From: a virus
IMG/VR virus record: IMGVR_UViG_3300045988_118131
Strand: one strand, 5' to 3'
DNA: 64,000 bases
Translations under genes and position numbers: made by a program
Shown here: piece by piece, positions 17,330-61,578 of the stretch
Position numbering within the stretch: position 1 is the stretch's first letter
Layout of the letters: every line of letters begins with the position of its first letter
Notes under the pieces: model-generated
Seen by the model: the letters and a program-made list of their open reading frames with translations, nothing else
Told to the model about the DNA's origin: nothing
Databases searched by the model: none

Positions 17330-17601
17330 TAGTTACACGCTTTGTATCCGAGACTATAGGTAGTATAGTGTAGATGTCTTAGTCTTAGTTCTTCTCTAAT
17401 ACATTTTAAAAAATCTTCTATAGTCCCTTCCTTATTAATTGTAATAGGTTTATCTACATTATTCATTCCTAACTCTAGGTGATATCCTATAACCTTATTT
17501 TCACCTTTCAATTCTTTCACTTTTAGCTTAGCTATATATTTAACACAATATACCTCTTTAATTAAATCGAGGATTACTTGTTCTAATTCTTCCGTCGTCA
17601 T
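17329..17601 (-). CDS. Hypothetical protein
   Basis: 90-aa ORF with a TAATG junction to the portal gene. Its start overlaps the recoded terL 3' end by 44 nt. Confidence 0.4.
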   Translation of the reverse strand: MTTEELEQVILDLIKEVYCVKYIAKLKVKELKGENKVIGYHLELGMNNVDKPITINKEGTIEDFLKCIREELRLRHLHYTTYSLGYKACN

Positions 17602-19885
17602 AATCAGGATATAAATTATAATTAGGTATTAGAGGATTTTGTTTAGGAATAGTTCCATATCTAATAATTCCTCTTTCATCTTTATATCATCCAAAGTCTT
17701 CTCACTCATCTTCGTAGACAGTCTCTCTTTGAGGTACAACCCCTGCCATTTCTTCATCCCCCAGTTCTGCCATCCCCATAGCAGCTACAATGTCAAACTT
17801 TTTCTTATTTTCATATGAATATTTAATTAATTCTTGCAACATTTCCTCAAATCATATCTCTGAGGCATAATCACTAATATAGGCAGCTATTAAGTCTAGC
17901 TGATGCCTAATAATAGCTTCTGTTGCTGGGGCTCCAAATTCCTTCGATCTACCTCTTTGAGTGTCTGCCATTGTAGATCTAGGTCTCCTCATTAAATAAG
18001 AGTCAGCTTTTTTCCTGTCTCTTAAATAAGTTACAAAGCTAACTTTAGATTTTTCTAATACAGCTTTGCAATTATAATATTGTAATAGTCTAAGTGCTAT
18101 TTTAAATGCTTCACGAATATCTTTAGGTCTATCCTTATATATAGCAACATATTTTGGAGAGTCCATACCTCGCACTCTTTTTTTAATTACTATACAAAAA
18201 TTAGATCCATTTTTAGTTCCTTCAGAAGTTTCGTCCTGCCCTAAGTCAATACTATCTATACCTGCTACATATAAATTTTTATATACTGTATTTCCCTCAT
18301 CTTTCTGGGGATGCTCTAATATAAGAACTTTACCTTTGGGATCTTTTATTCACTTAAACCCCTTAATATTTTCTTCTCTGTGTTCCCTTCCTCCGAAGTC
18401 ATATTCTAAAAACCCTCTTTCAGGTCTCGGTCCTACTTTATGGAGTATTATATTACTAAGCTGTTCTTGAAGTGCTACAATATCAAAATCATTATCTCCT
18501 TCTAGAGCTAAAGCATCGTCTGGAGTAAAGCAGAACTCAGCACAATCTATCCTATACGTATCAGCTTTTCCAGATAGTAATAATTTGTTTCGCTGTTCCT
18601 CATAAAAAGCCTTGGCTTTCTTAGAATCTGTTACTCCTCTTTTATCTACATATCCATCCTTATTTACAAAGGTAAACGCTGGAATAAAATACGCTGTCAA
18701 GACTTGCTCTCCAGTTTTAGTGTAGCTATGTCTATAAGGTAATACTCCAAATCCTTCTGGATTATTGAATATTTCACTCAATCCAGCCAAAGCCGGTCCA
18801 GAGTCTCCCCCAGTACCCCATACTAATCTAGTTCCGAATTTTCTTCCAGAAATTTCTACCAAAGCCTTACTCTGCAAATATGTTTTAATAAGAACTGGAT
18901 TAGAACCAGCTTCTTCAAAGAATAATCTGTCTGCACGGTCTCCACGAAGCTTTCTAGGAATATCAGCTGCAATCCCAAGTATTTCGGACATAAATCCAGA
19001 CTCTTCCCGTTGTTTATTTAGTTTAGAAGCTCTTTTATGATAGTCAGAATTGTACTTTTGTCTGACATGACGCATACCTCCTTCAGAGTCAGCGTTAAGA
19101 AATTCTAATTGTTCCCAACATTTTCGTAATACTGCAGATAAGAAATCATCACTATATGCTGAGTATAATACGTGAGATTCTTCTACTGTGGAGTAAAGTC
19201 TAACCCCTAAAGAAGCCGCAATCTCACTAAAACCGACTCCACGAGCTTTTAATGCACATACATCATGACCAGTCTTTTCACATATTTCTATATAATGGAA
19301 ATATTCATACTGTTTAGCGTAAAAGGTAGGAAAGTTTGAACGTCTACCTCCACCAGCTACCTTAACAGTAGAAATATCTTTTAGTCTATAAAAATTTAGG
19401 AAAAAGTAATTGTCTCCTGTAATCCTATATCCATGAGAGATGTACCCTTCGTTGCATCTTCTAAACTGTTCTTTTCAAAAGTCTAGATATTTCTTAGAAC
19501 CCTTTGGATAGGAGCAATACATTCCAGTATCTTGTTTTATTTTCCTAGTTTCTGTGAATCATTCAGGATTAAAATCTAATCCTTGAATTTCATTTATTGG
19601 TCTATATCCAGAAATTTCGTAACTTAGATTAGAATCAAAGAAGGTAATATTTTCACTAAGAGGGATATCCCAATTGTAAAAATCCTGCATACTGTTGTCA
19701 GAAACTCTATCCTCTATACGAGCTGCTTGCAAACCACTAGATACTTCTGGGTCCATATGTACTGGAGCGTTATATATGGGATTCTCTAGTAAGTCTTTTT
19801 CACCAGAATCTATTATTTTATGGATTTCTTCAACAGCTTTTTCTACTACAGGATCTTGAATTTTCTTCTTTCTACCTCTAGGCAT
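17558..19885 (-). CDS. terL: Terminase large subunit; read with TGA=Trp
   Basis: Track ORFs 19559..19885, 18350..19075 and 17852..18175 are in one frame. Six in-frame TGA at 19559, 19475, 18350, 17852, 17702 and 17687. Motifs: YFFLNFYRLK, ALKARGVGFSE (Walker A-like), LFFEEAG, WGTGGD, AGIDSIDLG (nuclease). TAA at 17558. Confidence 0.85.
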
Positions 19886-19887
19886 AA

Positions 19888-20466
19888 TTAATCAAATGCT
19901 CCAAGCTCTGCGTCCCCTCTAATAGAGGAATTAACCGCTTGAATTTCTTTCTTATACATAACTTCTAAGTTCTTAAGTTCATCTACCACTTTTGACGCAT
20001 TTTGCATTTCTGCAATAACATCTTTCGTTTTATATATTGGCTTTTGGGTAACAGGGTCTCTTTCACTTAAATCCAAATCGTTAAAATAATCCGTAATTTT
20101 ATCTACTACTCCTTGAGCAGCTTTGATAAATTTTAACGTTTTAGACGACTCCTGCAACTCTCTATATTTCCTACAAGCAGCTCTAAAAGTAGGATCAGCC
20201 CATTCTTCATCAGTAATACTAGCATCTTGTAAGCATTCTTGGTGTCTTTCCTGTTCATCAAATTGTGAATAAGGACTTAACCAATCTAACATAAGGAATA
20301 TATATTTAAACTCTCTGAAAGCTCTTAATCGTCTAGTTCCAGTAGGGTCTTCCTTACATTTATTTCTTCCTTTTTCCCATAATCCTTCAAATTCCCTAAC
20401 CAATAATATTTCTGGTTCATTTAATTCTAATTCTCCAGAAGCATTATTATATACAAATACTTTCAT
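19888..20466 (-). CDS. Hypothetical protein (position compatible with small terminase)
   Basis: 192-aa ORF directly upstream of terL on the coding strand. No recognisable motif. Confidence 0.4.
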   Translation of the reverse strand: MKVFVYNNASGELELNEPEILLVREFEGLWEKGRNKCKEDPTGTRRLRAFREFKYIFLMLDWLSPYSQFDEQERHQECLQDASITDEEWADPTFRAACRKYRELQESSKTLKFIKAAQGVVDKITDYFNDLDLSERDPVTQKPIYKTKDVIAEMQNASKVVDELKNLEVMYKKEIQAVNSSIRGDAELGAFD

Positions 20467-22973: not shown

Positions 22974-24863
22974 TTAAAATTCTATTCTTTTTCTCTTGGA
23001 TGCCCTCTCTTCTTGTATAAGCTCTTTTCTGTATTGAGATAGCATTCTTTCTACCTCGTTCTTTAAGTATTCTACTTCATGTGTGGATACGTTTCCATCA
23101 TGATCAAAATATACAAGAATTAATTTCTTTATATTAAATTGAGGATTATTTTTCTTAATCATCCAAGCGTAGGTACTTAATTGTAGAGTGTAATGCATGA
23201 AATTACAATCCATTAAATTGTTTAGAGGAAACTTCATCATAGCATATTTTTTAGCAGCTGGATCGTATCCAGATTTCATTTTTAATTCCTTATTAGTGTT
23301 ATGAGTAACAATCATTGATTCTCCAAATAGGAAAGTATGAGATGGACTATCCACCTCTAAACACTGTGTAGCTATTGTATCAACTCTCTCTACAGAAACA
23401 ATATTTCTAAATGAATGTTTGTCTATCAATGGAAAATTAATATCCTGATTTCTTACTAGGAATGGATTTAATCCATTAGTCGAGAAACATACATCCCATC
23501 CTTTAAATATCTTTCCGTTACACCTTTTATCAACTTCAAATAAAGTAGCTTTAATGCCCAACGTACTAACTAATTTAATTAAATCCCTAGCTTGCCACTC
23601 CTGAGTCGTTCCCATAACAAATCTTTTTCTACCCTCATGGTAGTAGCCATCCGTATCCATTAAACCTCTTAGTAAGTCAAGCCTTTGTTGGAATGATGCT
23701 CTCATATATAAGTCAGGAATAAATTTGTTATTTAATAATTCTAGATGATTTAGTTCTTTTCTGATACCATATATGGTTCTCATCTCTGCATGGGCTTCAT
23801 CAGATAGATTATCACCGTATGTATATCCCCTATTTGATATTTCTTCCCACACTTTCGGATTTATATTGGTTAAAATACCACAAGATTTAGAACCGTCTCC
23901 CAACCAACATCCTAATACATAGGGGTCAATCGGCAAATCAATTTCTGGCAGATTTAGAGGTTTACTGTTAAGTATCTTAGGGATATTATAAGAAGTTCTA
24001 GGTTTCTCTATAAGCCACTTAGCAATTTCTTCTGTAGTCATAATTCTATCACTAAAGGTCTTATCTGGTCTTCTGAATGAAATTAACCATCTATGCTCGT
24101 GGTCTGCAACTATAGATTCCCCATTGTCAAATGTAATTTTATAACATGGATTATAATGTATATCTGACTTATGGATAACTTTTGTGATGTTACCATCCCT
24201 ATCAAATATTTCATCACCTTCTTTAATATCACCTATAGTAGTCCATCCTGTTTTAGTAGGAATTACTGTATCTAAAGGTAATCCTTTATAGTCGATAATA
24301 TAAATATCATTTCCGTCCTTGACTAATAAGTCTATTTGTCCTGCTAATCTAATGTGCCCATCTTCAGATACTCTAGAAATTAAATACTCAGGATATACTG
24401 CAGATTCTAAATCTAATGGAGTGTAGTTTTGCTTACAAACGAATTTTCCTCCCAATCCATAAGATTTTAGAGAATAACTAGAAGCTCCAGAGTAAAACTT
24501 TTTTTCCATAGCTGCATGAATTTTAGTTCCTCTTTCACAAGATTCTCTATTAGTCTTAGCCCATTCATCTAATATGTCTTGCTGGGTAGAATTAAAAGTA
24601 ACCTCGTCAATATCATATAATTCTAATACTGAGTTATCCCATTTCTTAGATTTCAATAATCTCGGCTTTTCCATTGCTGCAAATTTTTGAGAACCTATTA
24701 ACCTCTCTAGTGCTTTGTATTTACTCCAAAAATCTTGATCAAAAGGTTGCTCAAATCTACCTATTAAGGTAGTTACAGAAATAAACTTTTGACCCTCATC
24801 ATTCCAATATTGATGAAATTCATCATTATAATTTACATTACCATTTCTCTTATCAACTTGCAT
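22974..24863 (-). CDS. PD-(D/E)XK (RecB/lambda-exonuclease-type) nuclease interrupted by an intein
   Basis: 629-aa ORF. The exteins join as ..GQIDLLVKDGNDIYIIDYK|TNKELK.., which restores the D..(D/E)xK motif. Confidence 0.75.
   Translation of the reverse strand: MQVDKRNGNVNYNDEFHQYWNDEGQKFISVTTLIGRFEQPFDQDFWSKYKALERLIGSQKFAAMEKPRLLKSKKWDNSVLELYDIDEVTFNSTQQDILDEWAKTNRESCERGTKIHAAMEKKFYSGASSYSLKSYGLGGKFVCKQNYTPLDLESAVYPEYLISRVSEDGHIRLAGQIDLLVKDGNDIYIIDYKGLPLDTVIPTKTGWTTIGDIKEGDEIFDRDGNITKVIHKSDIHYNPCYKITFDNGESIVADHEHRWLISFRRPDKTFSDRIMTTEEIAKWLIEKPRTSYNIPKILNSKPLNLPEIDLPIDPYVLGCWLGDGSKSCGILTNINPKVWEEISNRGYTYGDNLSDEAHAEMRTIYGIRKELNHLELLNNKFIPDLYMRASFQQRLDLLRGLMDTDGYYHEGRKRFVMGTTQEWQARDLIKLVSTLGIKATLFEVDKRCNGKIFKGWDVCFSTNGLNPFLVRNQDINFPLIDKHSFRNIVSVERVDTIATQCLEVDSPSHTFLFGESMIVTHNTNKELKMKSGYDPAAKKYAMMKFPLNNLMDCNFMHYTLQLSTYAWMIKKNNPQFNIKKLILVYFDHDGNVSTHEVEYLKNEVERMLSQYRKELIQEERASKRKRIEF
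23298..24284 (-). mobile_element. Intein (329 aa) with LAGLIDADG homing endonuclease; class-3-like
   Basis: aa 194-522. N-terminus GLPLDTVIPT (Gly where Cys/Ser is usual). LAGLIDADG motifs LGCWLGDGSKS and LLRGLMDTDGYY. C-terminus MIVTHN followed by Thr+1. Confidence 0.7.
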
Positions 24864-24864
24864 A

Positions 24865-25500
24865 CTAGTTTTCCATTTGTTTTTTAACTTGGTTATAATC
24901 TAATAGTATTGCTAACCTTTGTATTCTCGGAGATACTGTTTTCATATAGTACCCTAGATTATATTGTGGTTTTGTTTTATATAAAACTATAACCATTCCA
25001 ACAGGGTCACTGACTCCTTCTATTGGATAAAAAGCTACAGCAGAAGCATTACATAATCTAATTTTTCTATATAATTTAGGAAAGGACTCTTTTAATTCGC
25101 CTATACTGTCCGCTCTTAAATACCTTAAATTATGTATTTTGATAAGCTCCTCTCCATAATTTATGTAGCTTAACTCCCTAAACTCTTCTCCCCACATAGG
25201 CTCATCATCTTTAAATTTTTCAGCTAAGAATGTTATATATTTATATGAGAAACCTTGAGAGCTGTGATTATTGTTGTGATAATTTAGCAATATTACATTA
25301 GTCGCGTCTGGATCACTTATAAGTATATACTGTATCTGTGTATTAATTGTAGGCGTTATACGTTCAGTATAACGTTCCGCTTCCATCTTCTCCAATCTCT
25401 CTTTACTAATTAACCTATTAACTACGTTAATGTTAGAAACATTAATGTTAAGTATAGCTAAAATTAGTAAAATAAGAAAGGCTCTATTCTCCTTACTCAT
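24865..25500 (-). CDS. Hypothetical membrane-anchored protein
   Basis: 211 aa with an N-terminal hydrophobic segment. TAG stop 1 nt before the next ATG. Confidence 0.5.
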   Translation of the reverse strand: MSKENRAFLILLILAILNINVSNINVVNRLISKERLEKMEAERYTERITPTINTQIQYILISDPDATNVILLNYHNNNHSSQGFSYKYITFLAEKFKDDEPMWGEEFRELSYINYGEELIKIHNLRYLRADSIGELKESFPKLYRKIRLCNASAVAFYPIEGVSDPVGMVIVLYKTKPQYNLGYYMKTVSPRIQRLAILLDYNQVKKQMEN

Positions 25501-25704
25501 TTGTAGAAAAAATTGAAGACTGTTTTTAAATCAATCTGCTAACATATTCACGCTATTATTTTTAAATGTATAACAATCAAACGATTTTATTTTTGGTTAT
25601 TAACATTATTCCATATTTTCGTGTCTAAGTAATTTTCATTTGTTCATGTGCAAAATTAGCACTAATTTCGTAGAGTAAAAAATGAAATATAAAATATTTT
25701 AGTT

Positions 25705-30730: not shown

Positions 30731-30756
30731 ATTAATTCATTTTTAATTTAAGATTG

Positions 30757-30842
30757 CGCACGCTATAGGATTCGAACCTATGATGAGGATACCTCCTGGT
30801 AGGTTAACAGCCTACTGCTTTCGTCCACTCAGCCAAACGTAC
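30757..30842 (-). tRNA. Type-II-bodied tRNA with anticodon GUU (Asn-type loop CUGUUAA), discriminator G
   Basis: Acceptor GTACGTT/AGCGTGC. D arm GCTGAGTGGACGAAAGC. Anticodon stem GTAGG/CCTAC. 17-nt variable arm with GAGG/CCTC stem. T arm ATAGG-TTCGAAT-CCTAT. Confidence 0.6.
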
Positions 30843-31039
30843 AATGATTTTATTTACCTAATTCCCATAATGGAATTACACCCTCACTATTGGTATAATT
30901 CCTGTTGGAGTATAATACATAGGTTTACTAAATGTTTGTATTATCCAACTTCCAGCTTTCTTTACAATTCTTTTTATTGTCTTCATAACTGTAAGAATTA
31001 AGTTAATAAATATGTTTATCTAATAGATAATTAATCTTG

Positions 31040-31111
31040 CGCTTCATGTAGGATTCGAACCCACGTATTAACACTTTAGAGATGTTCGCCTAGCCACTCG
31101 ACCAATGAAGC
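31040..31111 (-). tRNA. Amber suppressor tRNA, anticodon CUA
   Basis: Acceptor GCTTCAT/ATGAAGC. Anticodon stem AACAT/GTGTT with loop CTCTAAA. T arm GTGGG-TTCGAAT-CCTAC. Discriminator G. Confidence 0.65.
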
Positions 31112-31122
31112 ATTTGGGAGAT

Positions 31123-31326
31123 TTACACTCCCATTGAAACTAATTCTAGTTTCTTGAATAAAGACCCGTCGTCAACAACAGCTATGGCAGTAGTCTTATT
31201 GTCTAAGTCTGGTTCTTTGAATATTGAGAAGTCCTTGCCAAGTAGGGATAATTTTTCTTTCTCGTGTTCTATATCTGCTGATAAATATATCAAATATTCA
31301 TTACTTCAATCCTTATGCTCTAGCAT
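31123..31326 (-). CDS. Small hypothetical protein; read with TGA=Trp
   Basis: ATG 31326, TAA 31123, in-frame TGA at 31306. The frame is open further upstream without an ATG. Confidence 0.3.
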
Positions 31327-31381
31327 ATATTGAGCAACTGCGTGTCCTCCTTGAACACATCCATATATAGGATTTAATTTT

Positions 31382-31717: not shown

Positions 31718-31845
31718 AATAATTAATTTTTTAAGTTTAAAAATAGTATCTTACAATTCTCTGAATGATACTTTATTATGGAGAAGCTCTTCCAAAATTA
31801 ATCTATAAAAAAGTGTTCATAATTAATAATTTTAAATTTAGGTAG

Positions 31846-31917
31846 ATCCCGATGTCGGACTCGAACCGACGTTTCAAGATTACAAATCTAGCGTTCTAGC
31901 CTCTGAACTAATTGGGA
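31846..31917 (-). tRNA. tRNA-Thr (UGU)
   Basis: D arm GTTC-AGAGGCTA-GAAC. Anticodon loop TTTGTAA. T arm GTCGG-TTCGAGT-CCGAC. One mismatch each in the acceptor and anticodon stems. Confidence 0.6.
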
Positions 31918-31922
31918 ATATG

Positions 31923-32017
31923 CACGGAAGTCAGGGGTCGAACCCGAATAATCCCTTTTGGAAGGGGACCAACGCTTTTGAAGAGCGTTTCTGTTTGCCG
32001 TACAGATAAGCTTCCGT
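31923..32017 (-). tRNA. Opal suppressor tRNA, anticodon UCA, with long variable arm (95 nt)
   Basis: Acceptor ACGGAAG/CTTCCGT. D arm TCTG-TACGGCAAA-CAGA. Anticodon stem ACGCT/AGCGT with loop CTTCAAA. Variable arm about 23 nt (CCCTT-CCAA-AAGGG). T arm TCGGG-TTCGACC-CCTGA. Discriminator G. Confidence 0.7.
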
Positions 32018-34551: not shown

Positions 34552-34808
34552 ATGGGATAAATGAGCGTGGTTCCACTATCATTCTCTCTCCACCTCCAGA
34601 AATTTTTTCCATTTCCCCAATTCTCCGAGAAAGAGCACTTTTAGCATTTCAATTTTGAAAACTCTACTCAACATATCTGAACTTGTTTTAGAGCTAAATT
34701 TGAGTTTTCACAAAAGTCTCTTTCCAAAATATATATTTTCTAAGCCCATACAATCTTAAATTTAAGTTTATATATAACAAACAAAAAGACAGCCTAGGAG
34801 TCTATAAA

Positions 34809-34866
34809 ATATACACTGATGAGACTAGGACGAAACTATCCTCAATTGAGGGTAGTCTGTTTGAAC
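34809..34866 (+). ncRNA. Hammerhead-ribozyme-like motif (type I topology), tentative
   Basis: CUGAUGAG (34816-34823) - 8 nt - CGAAAC, then a 9-bp stem III ACUAUCCUC-AAUU-GAGGGUAGU, then C. The predicted cut is after GUC at 34857. Stems I and II are weak. Confidence 0.3.
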
Positions 34867-43330: not shown

Positions 43331-43413
43331 CGCGAGGTAGTGTAAAGGTAACATCCTAGGCTCATAACCTAGAGAAGCGAAGAGTGTTGCAGGTTCGAGT
43401 CCTGCCCTCGCAA
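43331..43413 (+). tRNA. tRNA with anticodon CAU (Met/Ile2 class), C1xA72 mismatch and 16-nt variable region
   Basis: Acceptor CGCGAGG/CCTCGCA. Anticodon stem CTAGG/CCTAG with loop CTCATAA. T arm GCAGG-TTCGAGT-CCTGC. Confidence 0.55.
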
Positions 43414-43476
43414 CAAGGGTCAATCGGAAGATTGATTCTACAAGTTGTAAATAAACCGGTCAATGTTTATGACTTG

Positions 43477-48839: not shown

Positions 48840-48911
48840 ACGTCGGTGGCATGATTGGGAAGCAACGGTCTCCAAAACCGTGATATGAAGGTTCGAATCC
48901 TTCACGGCGTG
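48840..48911 (+). tRNA. tRNA-Trp (CCA)
   Basis: Anticodon stem ACGGT/ACCGT with loop CTCCAAA. T arm GAAGG-TTCGAAT-CCTTC. Discriminator G. One acceptor mismatch. Confidence 0.75.
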
Positions 48912-49008: not shown

Positions 49009-49093
49009 GGAGAGATGGCTGAGTGGTCTAAAGCACTGCACTGCTAACGCAGCGAGGGTAACACCTCCGTTGGTTCGAATCCAACTCTCTCCG
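49009..49093 (+). tRNA. tRNA-Ser (GCU)
   Basis: Type II. Acceptor GGAGAGA/TCTCTCC. Loop CTGCTAA. Variable stem GAGG/CCTC. T arm GTTGG-TTCGAAT-CCAAC. Confidence 0.8.
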
Positions 49094-49114
49094 CAATCTA
49101 ATTTACTATATTAT

Positions 49115-49805: not shown

Positions 49806-50342
49806 GGGCTTGCCTGGTTTTGACAGGTAATTACAAATTATAAGGACGTGTAGAGTTTGTACCAACTCTTTAAAAATGATACACAATTTTAAGTGGCAAC
49901 ACTGAAGTAAGAATGGCAGCGTAAGCTGTGGCTTGTCAATAAGTATATTGATTAAAGTCGGGTTAACGGAGAAGACCTAGAAACAGAAGAGGTGTGGGAA
50001 GAAGCGTATAAAGCAGCCCACTTAACTTGAACGCCAAAGGTTAGTAGAGCTGAGATTCTCCACAATGTGTATGGTAGAGACGCAAGGGCTATGCCTAAAA
50101 GTACTACTCGTTCTCCAACGTAAATGGAGTGGTGGAAAGCTGACTTCGGTCAGCCCATAGTTTGATAGTTTGTTGTATAGTTAAGCGGAAAGGTGCTAGA
50201 TGAGTCCGCTTGCAAAGAATCTAGCTCTTCTATGAAAACTATCTAAATGCTAGAACTCACTAGCTGATGTAATAAAAATGAGACACACGTTATCCTTGTA
50301 ATAAGGATTGTCTGGACGGCGGTTCGATTCCGCCCAAGTCCA
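49806..50342 (+). ncRNA. ssrA: tmRNA (transfer-messenger RNA)
   Basis: 5' GGGCTTGCCTGGTTTTGACAGG pairs with 3' CAAGTCC-A (G3-U70). T arm GGCGG-TTCGATT-CCGCC. Tag reading frame GGC AAC ACT GAA GTA AGA ATG GCA GCG TAA (49895-49924) gives GNTEVRMAA. Internal UUCG hairpin GCTGAC-TTCG-GTCAGC. Confidence 0.8.
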
Positions 50343-50380
50343 CTTAACATCAGATTAAAAATAAGATAAACAAATAAGTT

Positions 50381-61484: not shown

Positions 61485-61557
61485 TCTTAGGTAGCTTCAA
61501 TTGGTTAAAGCCCTGGATTTTACTAGGAGATTGTGGGTTCGAATCCCACCCTAAGAA
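61485..61557 (+). tRNA. tRNA-like gene with 6-nt anticodon loop (AUUUUA), isotype undetermined
   Basis: Acceptor TCTTAGG/CCTAAGA. D arm GCTT-CAATTGGTTA-AAGC. Stem CCTGG/CTAGG. T arm GTGGG-TTCGAAT-CCCAC. Confidence 0.4.
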
Positions 61558-61578
61558 CAAATAATTAAAAACAAAAAA

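What the first reader, a model, noticed from the sequence alone, without database searches (positions are those of the whole stretch)
31923..32017. Opal suppressor tRNA(UCA) with a type-II (long variable arm) body instead of a tRNA-Trp body
The tRNA that must decode the roughly 50 sense TGA codons has a clean anticodon arm (ACGCT-CUUCAAA-AGCGU). It is 95 nt long with a variable arm of about 23 nt (5-bp stem), an architecture normally restricted to Ser/Leu/Tyr/Sec tRNAs. The phage also encodes a normal type-I tRNA-Trp(CCA) at 48840..48911, so the suppressor is not a simple anticodon mutant of it. The discriminator is G73. Together with the xCA anticodon, this matches the main TrpRS identity set. 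A long arm with G73 is also what SerRS recognises. The D arm (4-bp stem, 9-nt loop) is not Sec-like. The residue actually inserted at TGA therefore cannot be taken for granted. The gene sits 5 nt upstream of tRNA-Thr, on the same strand as the late genes.
Basis: partly seen in the sequence, partly recalled or inferred. Interest (0 to 1): 0.8.

Follow-up and report, generated by a model that had tools for sequence, protein, structure and literature searches.

The report
Opal suppressor tRNA with decoy Trp-anticodon arm
The phage's UGA-reading tRNA is real and almost certainly inserts tryptophan, and its "long variable arm" is a second hairpin displaying the normal tryptophan anticodon loop, a design shared by dozens of phage suppressor tRNAs that I could not find described anywhere.

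Summary
Window 31922-32017 (minus strand) encodes a 95/96-nt tRNA(UCA) with an extra arm, in a zeta crAss-like phage (close relative of the published phage Lera) whose late genes carry about 46 in-frame TGAs.

The inserted residue can be inferred. In 68 relatives whose terminase gene has no in-frame TGA, three of the window's TGA positions are TGG in 68/68. Pooled over 12 positions, relatives show W/Y/F/L and never Ser.

The extra arm is not a Ser-type variable arm. It is a 6-bp hairpin whose 7-nt loop UUCCAAA copies the tRNA-Trp anticodon loop (CUCCAAA).

A motif scan plus an unbiased census of IMG/VR yielded 57 distinct tRNA(UCA) sequences (93-100 nt). Nearly all have 7/5 Trp-like bodies, a weak 1-72 pair and G73. 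Their extra-arm stems covary freely while the loop stays [G/C/U]UCCAAA. In the census, 34 of 35 canonical 7/5 members carry it; no ordinary Ser/Leu/Tyr arm does.

Amber suppressors in TAG-recoded phages carry an analogous arm with a Gln-like loop, UUCUGA.

Best reading: a Trp-inserting suppressor whose decoy anticodon arm restores TrpRS recognition lost by the C34-to-U change. The gene was already annotated in Lera; I found no description of this architecture.

The parts
31922..32017 (-). tRNA(UCA) gene, 96 nt (position 1 = 32017; G73 = 31923; no encoded CCA)
   Evidence: ARAGORN; fold; covariation in homologues; identical copies in 3 IMG/VR lineages and 8 metagenome contigs
32011..32017 (-). 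acceptor stem 5' strand ACGGAAG (A1-U72, C2-G71, G3-C70)
   Evidence: pairs with 31924-31930
31923..31930 (-). acceptor stem 3' strand CUUCCGU (31924-31930) plus discriminator G73 (31923)
   Evidence: G73 in 51 of 53 class members
31990..32010 (-). 4-nt linker CUUA (32007-32010) and D arm: 5-bp stem UCUGU/ACAGA, loop ACGGCAA
   Evidence: linker and 5-6-bp D stem conserved, with compensatory changes, in 7 homologues
31971..31989 (-). decoding anticodon arm: 6-bp stem AACGCU/AGCGUU, loop CUUCAAA; anticodon UCA = 31979-31981
   Evidence: Rfam tRNA model aligns the equivalent hairpin as the anticodon arm in relatives
31950..31970 (-). extra ('variable') arm: stem GGUCCC/GGGAUU, C.A closing mismatch, 7-nt loop UUCCAAA (31957-31963) with CCA at 31959-31961; a mimic of the tRNA-Trp anticodon loop
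31931..31947 (-). T arm UCGGG-UUCGACC-CCUGA
31845..31917 (-). tRNA-Thr(UGU), 5 nt downstream in the same cluster
   Evidence: 60 bits; 86-88% identical in sister lineages where the UCA tRNA is 100% identical
31039..31111 (-). type-I amber suppressor tRNA(CUA) in the same cluster
   Evidence: the same pair of suppressors is reported in phage Lera
48840..48912 (+). ordinary type-I tRNA-Trp(CCA); anticodon loop CUCCAAA; shares A1-U72, C2-G71, G3-C70 and G73 with the suppressor
17558..19918 (-). terminase large subunit gene with 6 in-frame TGAs, used for the codon-level test of what TGA encodes

Best explanation
This is the phage's tryptophan-inserting opal suppressor. It belongs to a widespread class of phage 'double-armed' suppressor tRNAs that I could not find described. 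The body is a canonical 7/5 tRNA with bacterial Trp identity marks (A1-U72, G73, C35, A36). The hairpin with loop CUUCAAA occupies the anticodon position and reads UGA on the ribosome. The extra hairpin in the variable region shows a second, non-decoding anticodon loop, UUCCAAA, with the wild-type Trp anticodon CCA. I propose that the host TrpRS, which normally needs C34, binds this decoy loop (or is helped by it). That would let the tRNA be charged efficiently with Trp even though its decoding anticodon has U34. SHOWN: the fold; TGA corresponds to Trp in this phage family; conservation of the loop against freely covarying stems; restriction of the motif to 7/5 Trp-like tRNA(UCA); the parallel Gln-like arm in amber suppressors; the association of each class with the matching recoding.
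For: 1. TGA = Trp. In 68 relatives whose terminase has no in-frame TGA, window TGA sites 109, 137 and 678 are TGG in 68/68. The other three sites are Phe/Tyr/Leu/Trp codons. Window TGG sites are TGA in a few recoded relatives. Pooled over 12 sites (654 cells): W 48%, Y 20%, F 13%, L 9%, S 0%, matching the profile at window TGG sites and unlike that at Ser sites. A tail-fibre repeat reads YWWFYN, TWXVWD and TWXVWS.
2. Identity marks. A1-U72 and G73 are Trp determinants; C2-G71 is an antideterminant against E. coli SerRS; G73 is an antideterminant against LeuRS and TyrRS.
3. The extra loop. A diverged homologue, L226, has a completely different arm stem but the loop core UCCAAA. A motif scan found 57 genuine tRNA(UCA) in 77 new loci, with the motif in a hairpin loop.
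4. Unbiased census. 34 of 35 canonical 7/5 long-arm tRNA(UCA) carry UCCA in the arm, against 3 of 17 Sec-like ones (Fisher p = 5e-9). 0 of 83 Ser/Leu/Tyr arms in the same loci carry it.
5. Covariation. Extra-arm stem: 85% paired against 48% in shuffles; score 0.93 against 0.22; 0 of 500 shuffles reach it; slid registers 0.09-0.22. Loops: GUCCAAA 27, CUCCAAA 15, UUCCAAA 6. Real tRNA-Trp loops in the same loci are CUCCAAA in 16 of 17.
6. Class body. 1-72 is A-U or G.U in 48 of 53, and G73 is present in 51 of 53.
7. Gln parallel. 38 of 47 loci hold 88-93-nt tRNA(CUA), about a third of them with a U1-A72 first pair, and an extra hairpin loop UUCUGA(G/A). The one long-arm CUA tRNA found without a motif search also has it.
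8. Recoding match. Opening TGA restores long ORFs in 23 of 37 UCA-class loci (TAG in 1). Opening TAG does so in 9 of 17 CUA-class loci (TGA in 1).
9. Constraint. The window tRNA is 96/96 identical in two lineages whose flanks are 63-89% identical.
10. Experiment elsewhere. All 13 phage tRNA(UCA)s analysed by MS inserted Trp in E. coli extracts (Seki et al. 2025).
Against: No aminoacylation or structural data exist for this tRNA. The geometry is unresolved: a variable-arm loop is far from where the anticodon normally meets TrpRS. The Gln-type arms have only 3-4-bp stems. In this phage family, extra arms also occur on sense tRNAs without any anticodon mimic (Asn-87 and Met-84 in the window; Trp(CCA)-91/84 and Arg-85 in relatives). 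Extra arms may therefore have a second, more general role. Type-I tRNA(UCA) suppressors without the arm exist in relatives (L001/L097), so the arm is not obligatory. The census was limited to one anticodon-stem sequence, and there was no unbiased census for CUA tRNAs. Some alphaproteobacterial tRNA-Sec arms also contain UCCAAA. Identity rules come from E. coli and B. subtilis, not from the unknown (probably Bacteroidota) host.
Confidence: 0.6

Rival explanations
1. Trp-inserting suppressor, but the extra arm is a functionless relic of an old tandem duplication of 'anticodon arm + variable loop'. TrpRS charges the tRNA through C35, A36, G73 and A1-U72 alone.
For: Linker lengths across the class (4-5 nt before and 3-4 nt after the extra arm) are what such a duplication would leave. 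Type-I UCA suppressors without the arm exist. E. coli TrpRS is reported to charge UCA suppressors (Borges et al.).
Against: Stems have diverged completely with compensatory changes while the loop core stays fixed. The stems of the two arms in one tRNA are no more alike than random partners (4.35 against 4.39 of 10), so any duplication is old and a neutral loop should have decayed. 34 of 35 census members keep the motif. The Gln class evolved the same design independently.
Confidence: 0.12
2. The conserved anticodon-like loop is read by something other than the synthetase. Candidates are an anticodon-loop modification enzyme, a phage factor that marks phage tRNAs, or a host anticodon nuclease for which the loop acts as a decoy.
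For: Extra arms without mimic loops occur on sense tRNAs in the same phages, hinting at a general arm function. Phage tRNAs are known targets of host tRNA-directed defences (my own knowledge).
Against: The loop matches the cognate amino acid of the recoding in both classes (Trp for UGA, Gln for UAG). That is what synthetase identity predicts, and a nuclease or general tag does not.
Confidence: 0.15
3. SerRS charges the tRNA through its long arm and G73, so TGA is read as Ser.
For: Long arm plus G73. SerRS ignores anticodons. Ser-charged long-arm suppressors (allo-tRNAs) exist.
Against: No Ser codon at any of 654 aligned cells; invariant TGG at three sites. A1-U72 and C2-G71 instead of G1-C72 and G2-C71. 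5-bp D stem, unlike the 3-bp type-II D arm of the phage's own tRNA-Ser. Babkin et al.'s tRNAscan-SE isotype call was Trp or Arg, not Ser.
Confidence: 0.03
4. It is a selenocysteine tRNA or a direct derivative working with SelA/SelB.
For: Best Rfam match is tRNA-Sec (34 bits; 38-41 bits for relatives). UCA, G73, a 6-bp anticodon stem and a long D stem are Sec-like.
Against: Below the gathering score (47). 7/5 rather than 8/5 acceptor-T. About 46 TGAs at Trp positions in ordinary structural genes. Genuine Sec-like tRNAs in the census form a separate class: GG acceptors, no clean 7-bp acceptor stem (8 bp in a few), long stems with tiny loops.
Confidence: 0.01

Closest known systems
tRNA-Trp-type opal suppressors of TGA-recoded (code 4) phages (Yutin 2021; Borges 2021/22; Seki 2025; tRNA-SUP-TCA of zeta crAss-like phage Lera, Babkin 2025)
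   Same: Phage-encoded tRNA(UCA) decoding UGA as Trp in late genes of a phage whose host uses the standard code. The Lera genome table lists the same cluster, with a 95-nt tRNA in the same place.
   Different: Those papers treat suppressors as ordinary tRNAs charged by TrpRS. None that I could read mentions a long arm or a second anticodon-like loop.
tRNA-Sec and allo-tRNAs (Mukai 2017)
   Same: Long extra arm, G73, often UCA or other stop anticodons, non-canonical core. This subfamily has a Sec-like long D stem and 6-bp anticodon stem.
   Different: Those have 8/5, 9/4, 8/4 or 9/3 acceptor-T branches and are serylated. Here the branch is 7/5, the acceptor is Trp-like, the decoded residue is Trp, and the arm loop is an anticodon copy.
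Nematode V-arm tRNAs (nev-tRNAs), from my own knowledge
   Same: A long variable arm on a tRNA whose anticodon belongs to a type-I family.
   Different: There the arm switches identity to Leu, away from the anticodon's meaning. Here the arm appears to keep identity on the amino acid that the recoding needs.
thrS mRNA operator mimicry of the tRNA-Thr anticodon arm (E. coli), from my own knowledge
   Same: A stand-alone stem-loop copying a cognate anticodon loop is bound by the synthetase's anticodon-binding domain.
   Different: That mimic lies in an mRNA leader and represses translation. Here the mimic lies inside a tRNA and would promote its charging.
Engineered aptamer-tagged tRNAs with hairpins grafted in the variable arm (Mukai 2020, PMC7590224; abstract only)
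   Same: Shows that a functional hairpin in the variable-arm position is compatible with translation.
   Different: Synthetic, and built on allo-tRNA chassis.

Membership tests
Bacterial tRNA-Trp (as opal-suppressor derivative) | Anticodon xCA with C35 and A36 | tested here: met
   UCA at 31979-31981 in loop CUUCAAA
Bacterial tRNA-Trp (as opal-suppressor derivative) | G73 discriminator and A1-U72 first pair (Giege and Eriani 2023) | tested here: met
   Class-wide: G73 in 51 of 53; A-U or G.U first pair in 48 of 53
Bacterial tRNA-Trp (as opal-suppressor derivative) | Type-I body with a 4-5-nt variable loop | tested here: not met
   21-nt extra hairpin plus 2-nt linker
Bacterial tRNA-Trp (as opal-suppressor derivative) | Trp at the decoded codon | tested here: met
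   Codon-level comparison. This is indirect: it shows which residue the proteins need, not which one is charged
Bacterial tRNA-Trp (as opal-suppressor derivative) | Aminoacylation by TrpRS | not testable with these tools
   Needs biochemistry. Seki 2025 found Trp for 13 of 13 other phage tRNA(UCA)s
tRNA-Ser (type II) | Long variable arm and G73 | tested here: met
tRNA-Ser (type II) | Acceptor determinants G1-C72 and G2-C71 (C2-G71 is an antideterminant in E. coli) | tested here: not met
   A1-U72 and C2-G71. The phage's own tRNA-Ser genes start GGAGAG and GGAAGT
tRNA-Ser (type II) | Type-II core (3-bp D stem, long D loop) | tested here: not met
   5-bp D stem after a 4-nt linker
tRNA-Ser (type II) | Ser at the decoded codon | tested here: not met
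   0 Ser codons in 654 aligned cells
tRNA-Sec (Rfam RF01852) | Score at or above the curated gathering threshold | tested here: not met
   34 bits against 47
tRNA-Sec (Rfam RF01852) | 13-bp acceptor-T branch (8/5 in bacteria) | tested here: not met
   7/5
tRNA-Sec (Rfam RF01852) | 6-bp D stem with 4-nt loop; 6-bp anticodon stem | tested here: inconclusive
   Window: 5-bp D stem with 7-nt loop and a 6-bp anticodon stem. Some homologues have 6 bp with 4 nt
allo-tRNA (Mukai 2017) | 8/4 or 9/3 acceptor-T branch | tested here: not met
   7/5
Double-armed phage suppressor tRNAs (class defined here) | 7/5 body, stop anticodon in the canonical arm, and an extra hairpin in the variable region whose 7-nt loop copies the cognate sense anticodon loop (NUCCAAA for Trp) | tested here: met
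   Window loop UUCCAAA closed by a C.A mismatch on a 6-bp stem. Class evidence

The most novel reading that the evidence does not exclude
These are 'two-headed' tRNAs that use different arms for different partners. During aminoacylation the CCA (or CUG) hairpin is presented to TrpRS (or GlnRS) as if it were the anticodon arm, possibly by swapping which hairpin stacks under the D stem. On the ribosome the UCA (or CUA) hairpin decodes the stop codon. This would separate synthetase identity from decoding within one molecule. It would explain why phages recode stops only to Trp and Gln, the two amino acids whose synthetases depend most on the anticodon. It would also give a natural blueprint for making efficient suppressors for anticodon-dependent synthetases.
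Probability: 0.25. Interest if true: 0.95.

Novelty: new variant of a known kind. Interest (0 to 1): 0.85.

Why it matters
Phage stop-codon recoding needs a suppressor tRNA that the host synthetase still charges, yet TrpRS and GlnRS read the very anticodon bases a suppressor has to change. A built-in decoy anticodon loop would solve this.

- It may account for part of the 'missing' suppressors in recoded phages. The window's subfamily is not reported by Rfam at curated thresholds.
- It offers a design principle for genetic-code expansion with anticodon-dependent synthetases.
- For annotation, it settles that TGA in this phage group should be translated as Trp.

Tried and rejected
- blastn of the tRNA cluster against GenBank phages found nothing.
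- Pfam on the TGA-containing proteins was nearly silent, and a first PHROGs call failed on stop codons.
- Loci anchored on the terminase or portal did not reach the tRNA clusters: 1 tRNA in 84 loci.
- Anchoring on the 226-aa gene at 24865-25596 reached them only in the closest lineages, where the UCA tRNA is invariant. Covariation had to come from pattern scans instead.
- A search for the relative's long-arm tRNA-Trp(CCA) showed that extra arms also occur on sense tRNAs. Those have a small GNRA-capped hairpin, not an anticodon mimic.
- I first suspected the long arm was a lineage-wide quirk with no bearing on identity. This was superseded when L226 showed loop conservation.
- Global similarity did not identify a clear parent for the window tRNA.
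- Recent duplication or gene conversion between the two arms was tested and not supported.
- The Seki 2025 supplement, which might contain tested long-arm tRNAs, is not held. The Lera supplement gives lengths only, not sequences.
- Literature searches for long-arm or anticodon-mimic suppressors found nothing relevant. The library excludes most subscription journals, so prior description cannot be ruled out.
- The genome-collection scan returned mostly chance matches, plus alphaproteobacterial tRNA-Sec genes whose arms happen to contain UCCAAA.

Full report
**1. The object.**
ARAGORN finds 23 tRNAs in the window. Only one has anticodon TCA, at 31922-32017 on the minus strand. The 'SeC' label comes only from the anticodon. 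Rfam does not list it at gathering thresholds. With relaxed thresholds the best match is tRNA-Sec at 34 bits, against a cut-off of 47.

The MFE fold and the sequence give these elements:
- a 7-bp acceptor stem ACGGAAG/CUUCCGU, followed by G73;
- a 4-nt linker, CUUA;
- a D arm with a 5-bp stem and a 7-nt loop;
- a 6-bp anticodon stem with loop CUUCAAA and no nucleotide 26;
- an extra hairpin GGUCCC-C-UUCCAAA-A-GGGAUU;
- a 2-nt linker and a 5-bp T stem.

tRNA-Thr follows after 5 nt.

**2. The setting.**
With TGA treated as sense, the minus-strand block 1-25600 and plus-strand genes at 26-29.6 kb form long ORFs containing 46 TGAs. The 33-64 kb block has almost none.

The terminase is distantly crAss-like, and relatives are 100-187 kb gut phage contigs. 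Gene order and tRNA lengths match the published zeta crAss-like phage Lera. Its table lists tRNAs of 86, 72, 72 and 95 nt and the same small ORFs at the same spacing.

Babkin et al. 2025 annotate that 95-nt gene as tRNA-SUP-TCA. They report a tRNAscan-SE isotype of 'Trp or arginine', and they note an unused CTA suppressor. The gene as such is therefore already annotated.

**3. What TGA encodes.**
The 775-aa terminase has six TGAs. In 120 database homologues the aligned residues are W, F, Y or L. Some of those proteins may have been called under code 4, which writes TGA as W, so I repeated the test on DNA.

In 68 IMG/VR relatives whose gene has no in-frame TGA, the aligned codons are as follows:

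| Window TGA site | Codons in the 68 relatives |
|---|---|
| 109, 137, 678 | TGG in 68 of 68 |
| 512, 728, 733 | Phe, Tyr, Leu or Trp codons |

The window's own TGG sites are TGA in a few recoded relatives.

Over all alignable late genes (12 sites, 654 cells) relatives have W 48%, Y 20%, F 13%, L 9% and S 0%. That is the profile seen at window TGG sites, not the one at its Ser sites. The proteins therefore require Trp at TGA.

**4. Identity marks.**
According to Giege and Eriani 2023:
- bacterial Trp identity rests on the anticodon, G73 and the first pair A1-U72;
- Ser identity rests on the long arm and tertiary shape, plus acceptor determinants, and C2-G71 is an antideterminant against E. coli SerRS;
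- G73 is an antideterminant against LeuRS and TyrRS.

The suppressor has A1-U72, C2-G71, G3-C70 and G73. These are the same first three pairs and discriminator as the phage's own type-I tRNA-Trp.

**5. The extra arm is an anticodon-loop copy.**
Close relatives were uninformative. The tRNA is 96/96 identical in three lineages, although neighbouring features are only 63-92% identical. At the divergence of the adjacent tRNA-Thr, the chance of no substitution in 96 nt is about 5e-6 to 5e-7.

The metagenome scan found eight more identical copies. It also found one diverged homologue, L226. It has the same anticodon arm and an ACGG acceptor, but a different D arm and T arm. Its extra-arm stem is completely different (AACGG/CCGUU), yet the loop core is the same, UCCAAA. 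U-CCA-AA is the core of the tRNA-Trp anticodon loop.

A motif scan of IMG/VR (CTTCAAA ... TCCAAA ... GGTTCGA) returned 77 new loci. In 57 of them the match lies inside a genuine 93-100-nt tRNA(UCA), with the motif in a hairpin loop. Many are textbook tRNA-Trp bodies (AGGGGC... acceptor, G73) with arms such as CGGGU-CUCCAAA-ACCCG.

That scan required the motif, so I ran a census that did not (GGTCTTCAAAACC, a 20-40-nt gap, GGTTCGA):

| Set | UCCA in the arm | No UCCA |
|---|---|---|
| Census long-arm tRNA(UCA), canonical 7/5 branch | 34 | 1 |
| Census long-arm tRNA(UCA), not 7/5 (Sec-like) | 3 | 14 |
| Ser, Leu and Tyr arms in the same loci | 0 | 83 |

Fisher's test on the first two rows gives p = 5e-9. 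The Sec-like ones have GG acceptors, no clean 7-bp acceptor stem (8 bp in a few), long stems and tiny loops. None of the census tRNAs carries the Gln motif.

On 51 unique hairpins the stem covaries strongly:
- 85% of cells are paired, against 48% in shuffles;
- the covariation score is 0.93, against 0.22, and 0 of 500 shuffles reach it;
- slid registers score 0.09-0.22;
- all six pairs show compensatory changes.

The loops are GUCCAAA (27), CUCCAAA (15) and UUCCAAA (6), plus a few near variants. Real tRNA-Trp(CCA) genes in the same loci have CUCCAAA in 16 of 17.

Class members have A-U or G.U at 1-72 in 48 of 53 and G73 in 51 of 53.

**6. The window's subfamily.**
Seven diverged members share the 4-nt linker, the 5-6-bp D stem and the UAU-UCGGG T-arm junction. 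RNAalifold recovers the whole cloverleaf, with compensatory changes in 19 of 29 pairs. This subfamily only reaches sub-threshold tRNA-Sec scores in Rfam.

The main group scores about 60 bits with the general tRNA model. That model aligns the UCA hairpin as the anticodon arm and the CCA hairpin as a 23-24-nt variable-region insertion.

**7. A parallel in amber suppressors.**
In TAG-recoded relatives found by synteny (L102, L112), one of two tandem tRNA(CUA) genes is 89 nt. It is a type-I Gln-like body with an inserted hairpin GCC-UUCUGAG-GGC.

A motif scan found 38 genuine 88-93-nt tRNA(CUA) genes in 47 loci. About a third have a U1-A72 first pair, their short stems vary, and the loops are UUCUGAG (22) or UUCUGAA (5). 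tRNA-Gln(CUG) loops in held loci begin UUCUG.

Each class goes with the matching recoding:

| Loci carrying | n | Opening TGA restores long ORFs | Opening TAG restores long ORFs |
|---|---|---|---|
| UCA tRNA with Trp-like arm | 37 | 23 | 1 |
| CUA tRNA with Gln-like arm | 17 | 1 | 9 |

**8. Interpretation.**
The tRNA is a Trp-inserting opal suppressor; I put confidence in that part at about 0.9. The extra arm is under selection to display the cognate sense anticodon loop.

The simplest reader of such a loop is the cognate synthetase. TrpRS needs C34 and GlnRS needs G36, and these are exactly the bases a UCA or CUA suppressor gives up. I therefore propose that the arm is an identity decoy (confidence about 0.55-0.6).

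Linker lengths (4-5 nt before the arm, 3-4 nt after it) suggest an origin by tandem duplication of 'anticodon arm + variable loop'. The stems of the two arms are no longer related, so the loop is being maintained, not merely inherited.

How the decoy reaches the synthetase's anticodon-binding domain is unknown. It could stay in place, or the two hairpins could swap position.

**9. Caveats.**
- Extra arms without mimic loops also occur on sense tRNAs in this phage family: Asn-87 and Met-84 in the window, and Trp(CCA)-91/84 and Arg-85 in relatives.
- Type-I UCA suppressors exist in relatives.
- The census covers one anticodon-stem type only.
- The identity rules come from model bacteria.
- No experiment has been done on this molecule.
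- The paper library is incomplete, so novelty is 'not found', not 'proven absent'.

Noticed in passing
window 31039-31111 (-): Type-I amber suppressor tRNA(CUA) in a phage that recodes TGA, not TAG. Phage Lera has the same unused pair. In TAG-recoded relatives the homologous region holds two tandem tRNA(CUA) genes, one of them with the Gln-anticodon-like extra arm (L102, L112).
   Followed up: partly
window 30756-30842 (-): 87-nt tRNA-Asn(GUU) with a long extra arm. Its D arm and extra-arm stem (GAGG/CCUC) resemble the phage's own tRNA-Ser(GCU) at 49009-49094, but its acceptor stem differs (GUACGUU). Sister lineages have ordinary 73- or 75-nt tRNA-Asn genes in the same slot. Possible anticodon or identity shift on a Ser-like scaffold.
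   Followed up: partly
window 43331-43414 (+): 84-nt tRNA-Met(CAU) with an expanded variable region.
   Followed up: no
L006 6082-6172 and L173-L187: Long-arm tRNA-Trp(CCA) of 91 or 84 nt in at least 12 large phage contigs. The extra arm is a 3-bp hairpin with a GNRA loop (GAC-GAAA-GUU, with GAGA and GAU variants), and a 7-nt deletion variant exists. The body is 76% identical to the window's tRNA-Asn-87.
   Followed up: partly
window 31112-31381 (-): Small ORF with one in-frame TGA between the CTA suppressor and the next ORF. Its translation (…QGGHAVAQ…EPDLDNKTTAIAV…) looks like a PTH2-type peptidyl-tRNA hydrolase. The Lera equivalent is annotated 'aminoacyl-tRNA hydrolase'.
   Followed up: partly
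window 34786-34862 (+): RAGATH-1 hammerhead ribozyme, 88 bits, full-length.
   Followed up: no
window 49806-50345 (+): tmRNA (82 bits) of 540 nt, with an insertion of roughly 237 nt relative to the Rfam model. ARAGORN did not call it.
   Followed up: no
window 61485-61558 (+): tRNA-like gene that ARAGORN gives a 2-nt 'anticodon' (tt); Rfam tRNA score 42.9 bits. Similar 75-nt genes occur in three related loci. Possibly a tRNA with an unusual anticodon loop size.
   Followed up: no
L006 6356-6440; L178, L184, L174: 82-85-nt tRNAs called UUA, 'ata' or 'ta'. They can be drawn either with an extra arm or with a 17-20-nt anticodon loop (stem AUCUC/GAGAU). Their acceptor ACGGUAG resembles the window suppressor's.
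   Followed up: no
window 22974-24899 (-): RecB/Cas4-like exonuclease gene that appears to carry an intein- or homing-endonuclease-like insert (…GCWLGDGS…). The Lera 'exonuclease V' is only 903 nt.
   Followed up: no
L484, L498, L511, L516 and others (genome contigs): Alphaproteobacterial tRNA-Sec genes (GGAGGUGA-type acceptors, Sec-like) whose variable-arm loops also read UCCAAAAG. This is probably a lineage coincidence picked up by the motif scan, but it cautions that the motif alone is not diagnostic.
   Followed up: partly
L496/L584 (Parabacteroides goldsteinii contig), L478, L572: Trp-type double-armed tRNA(UCA) genes on contigs assigned to bacterial genomes or MAGs. They may be prophages or binned phage contigs, and could point to hosts.
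   Followed up: no
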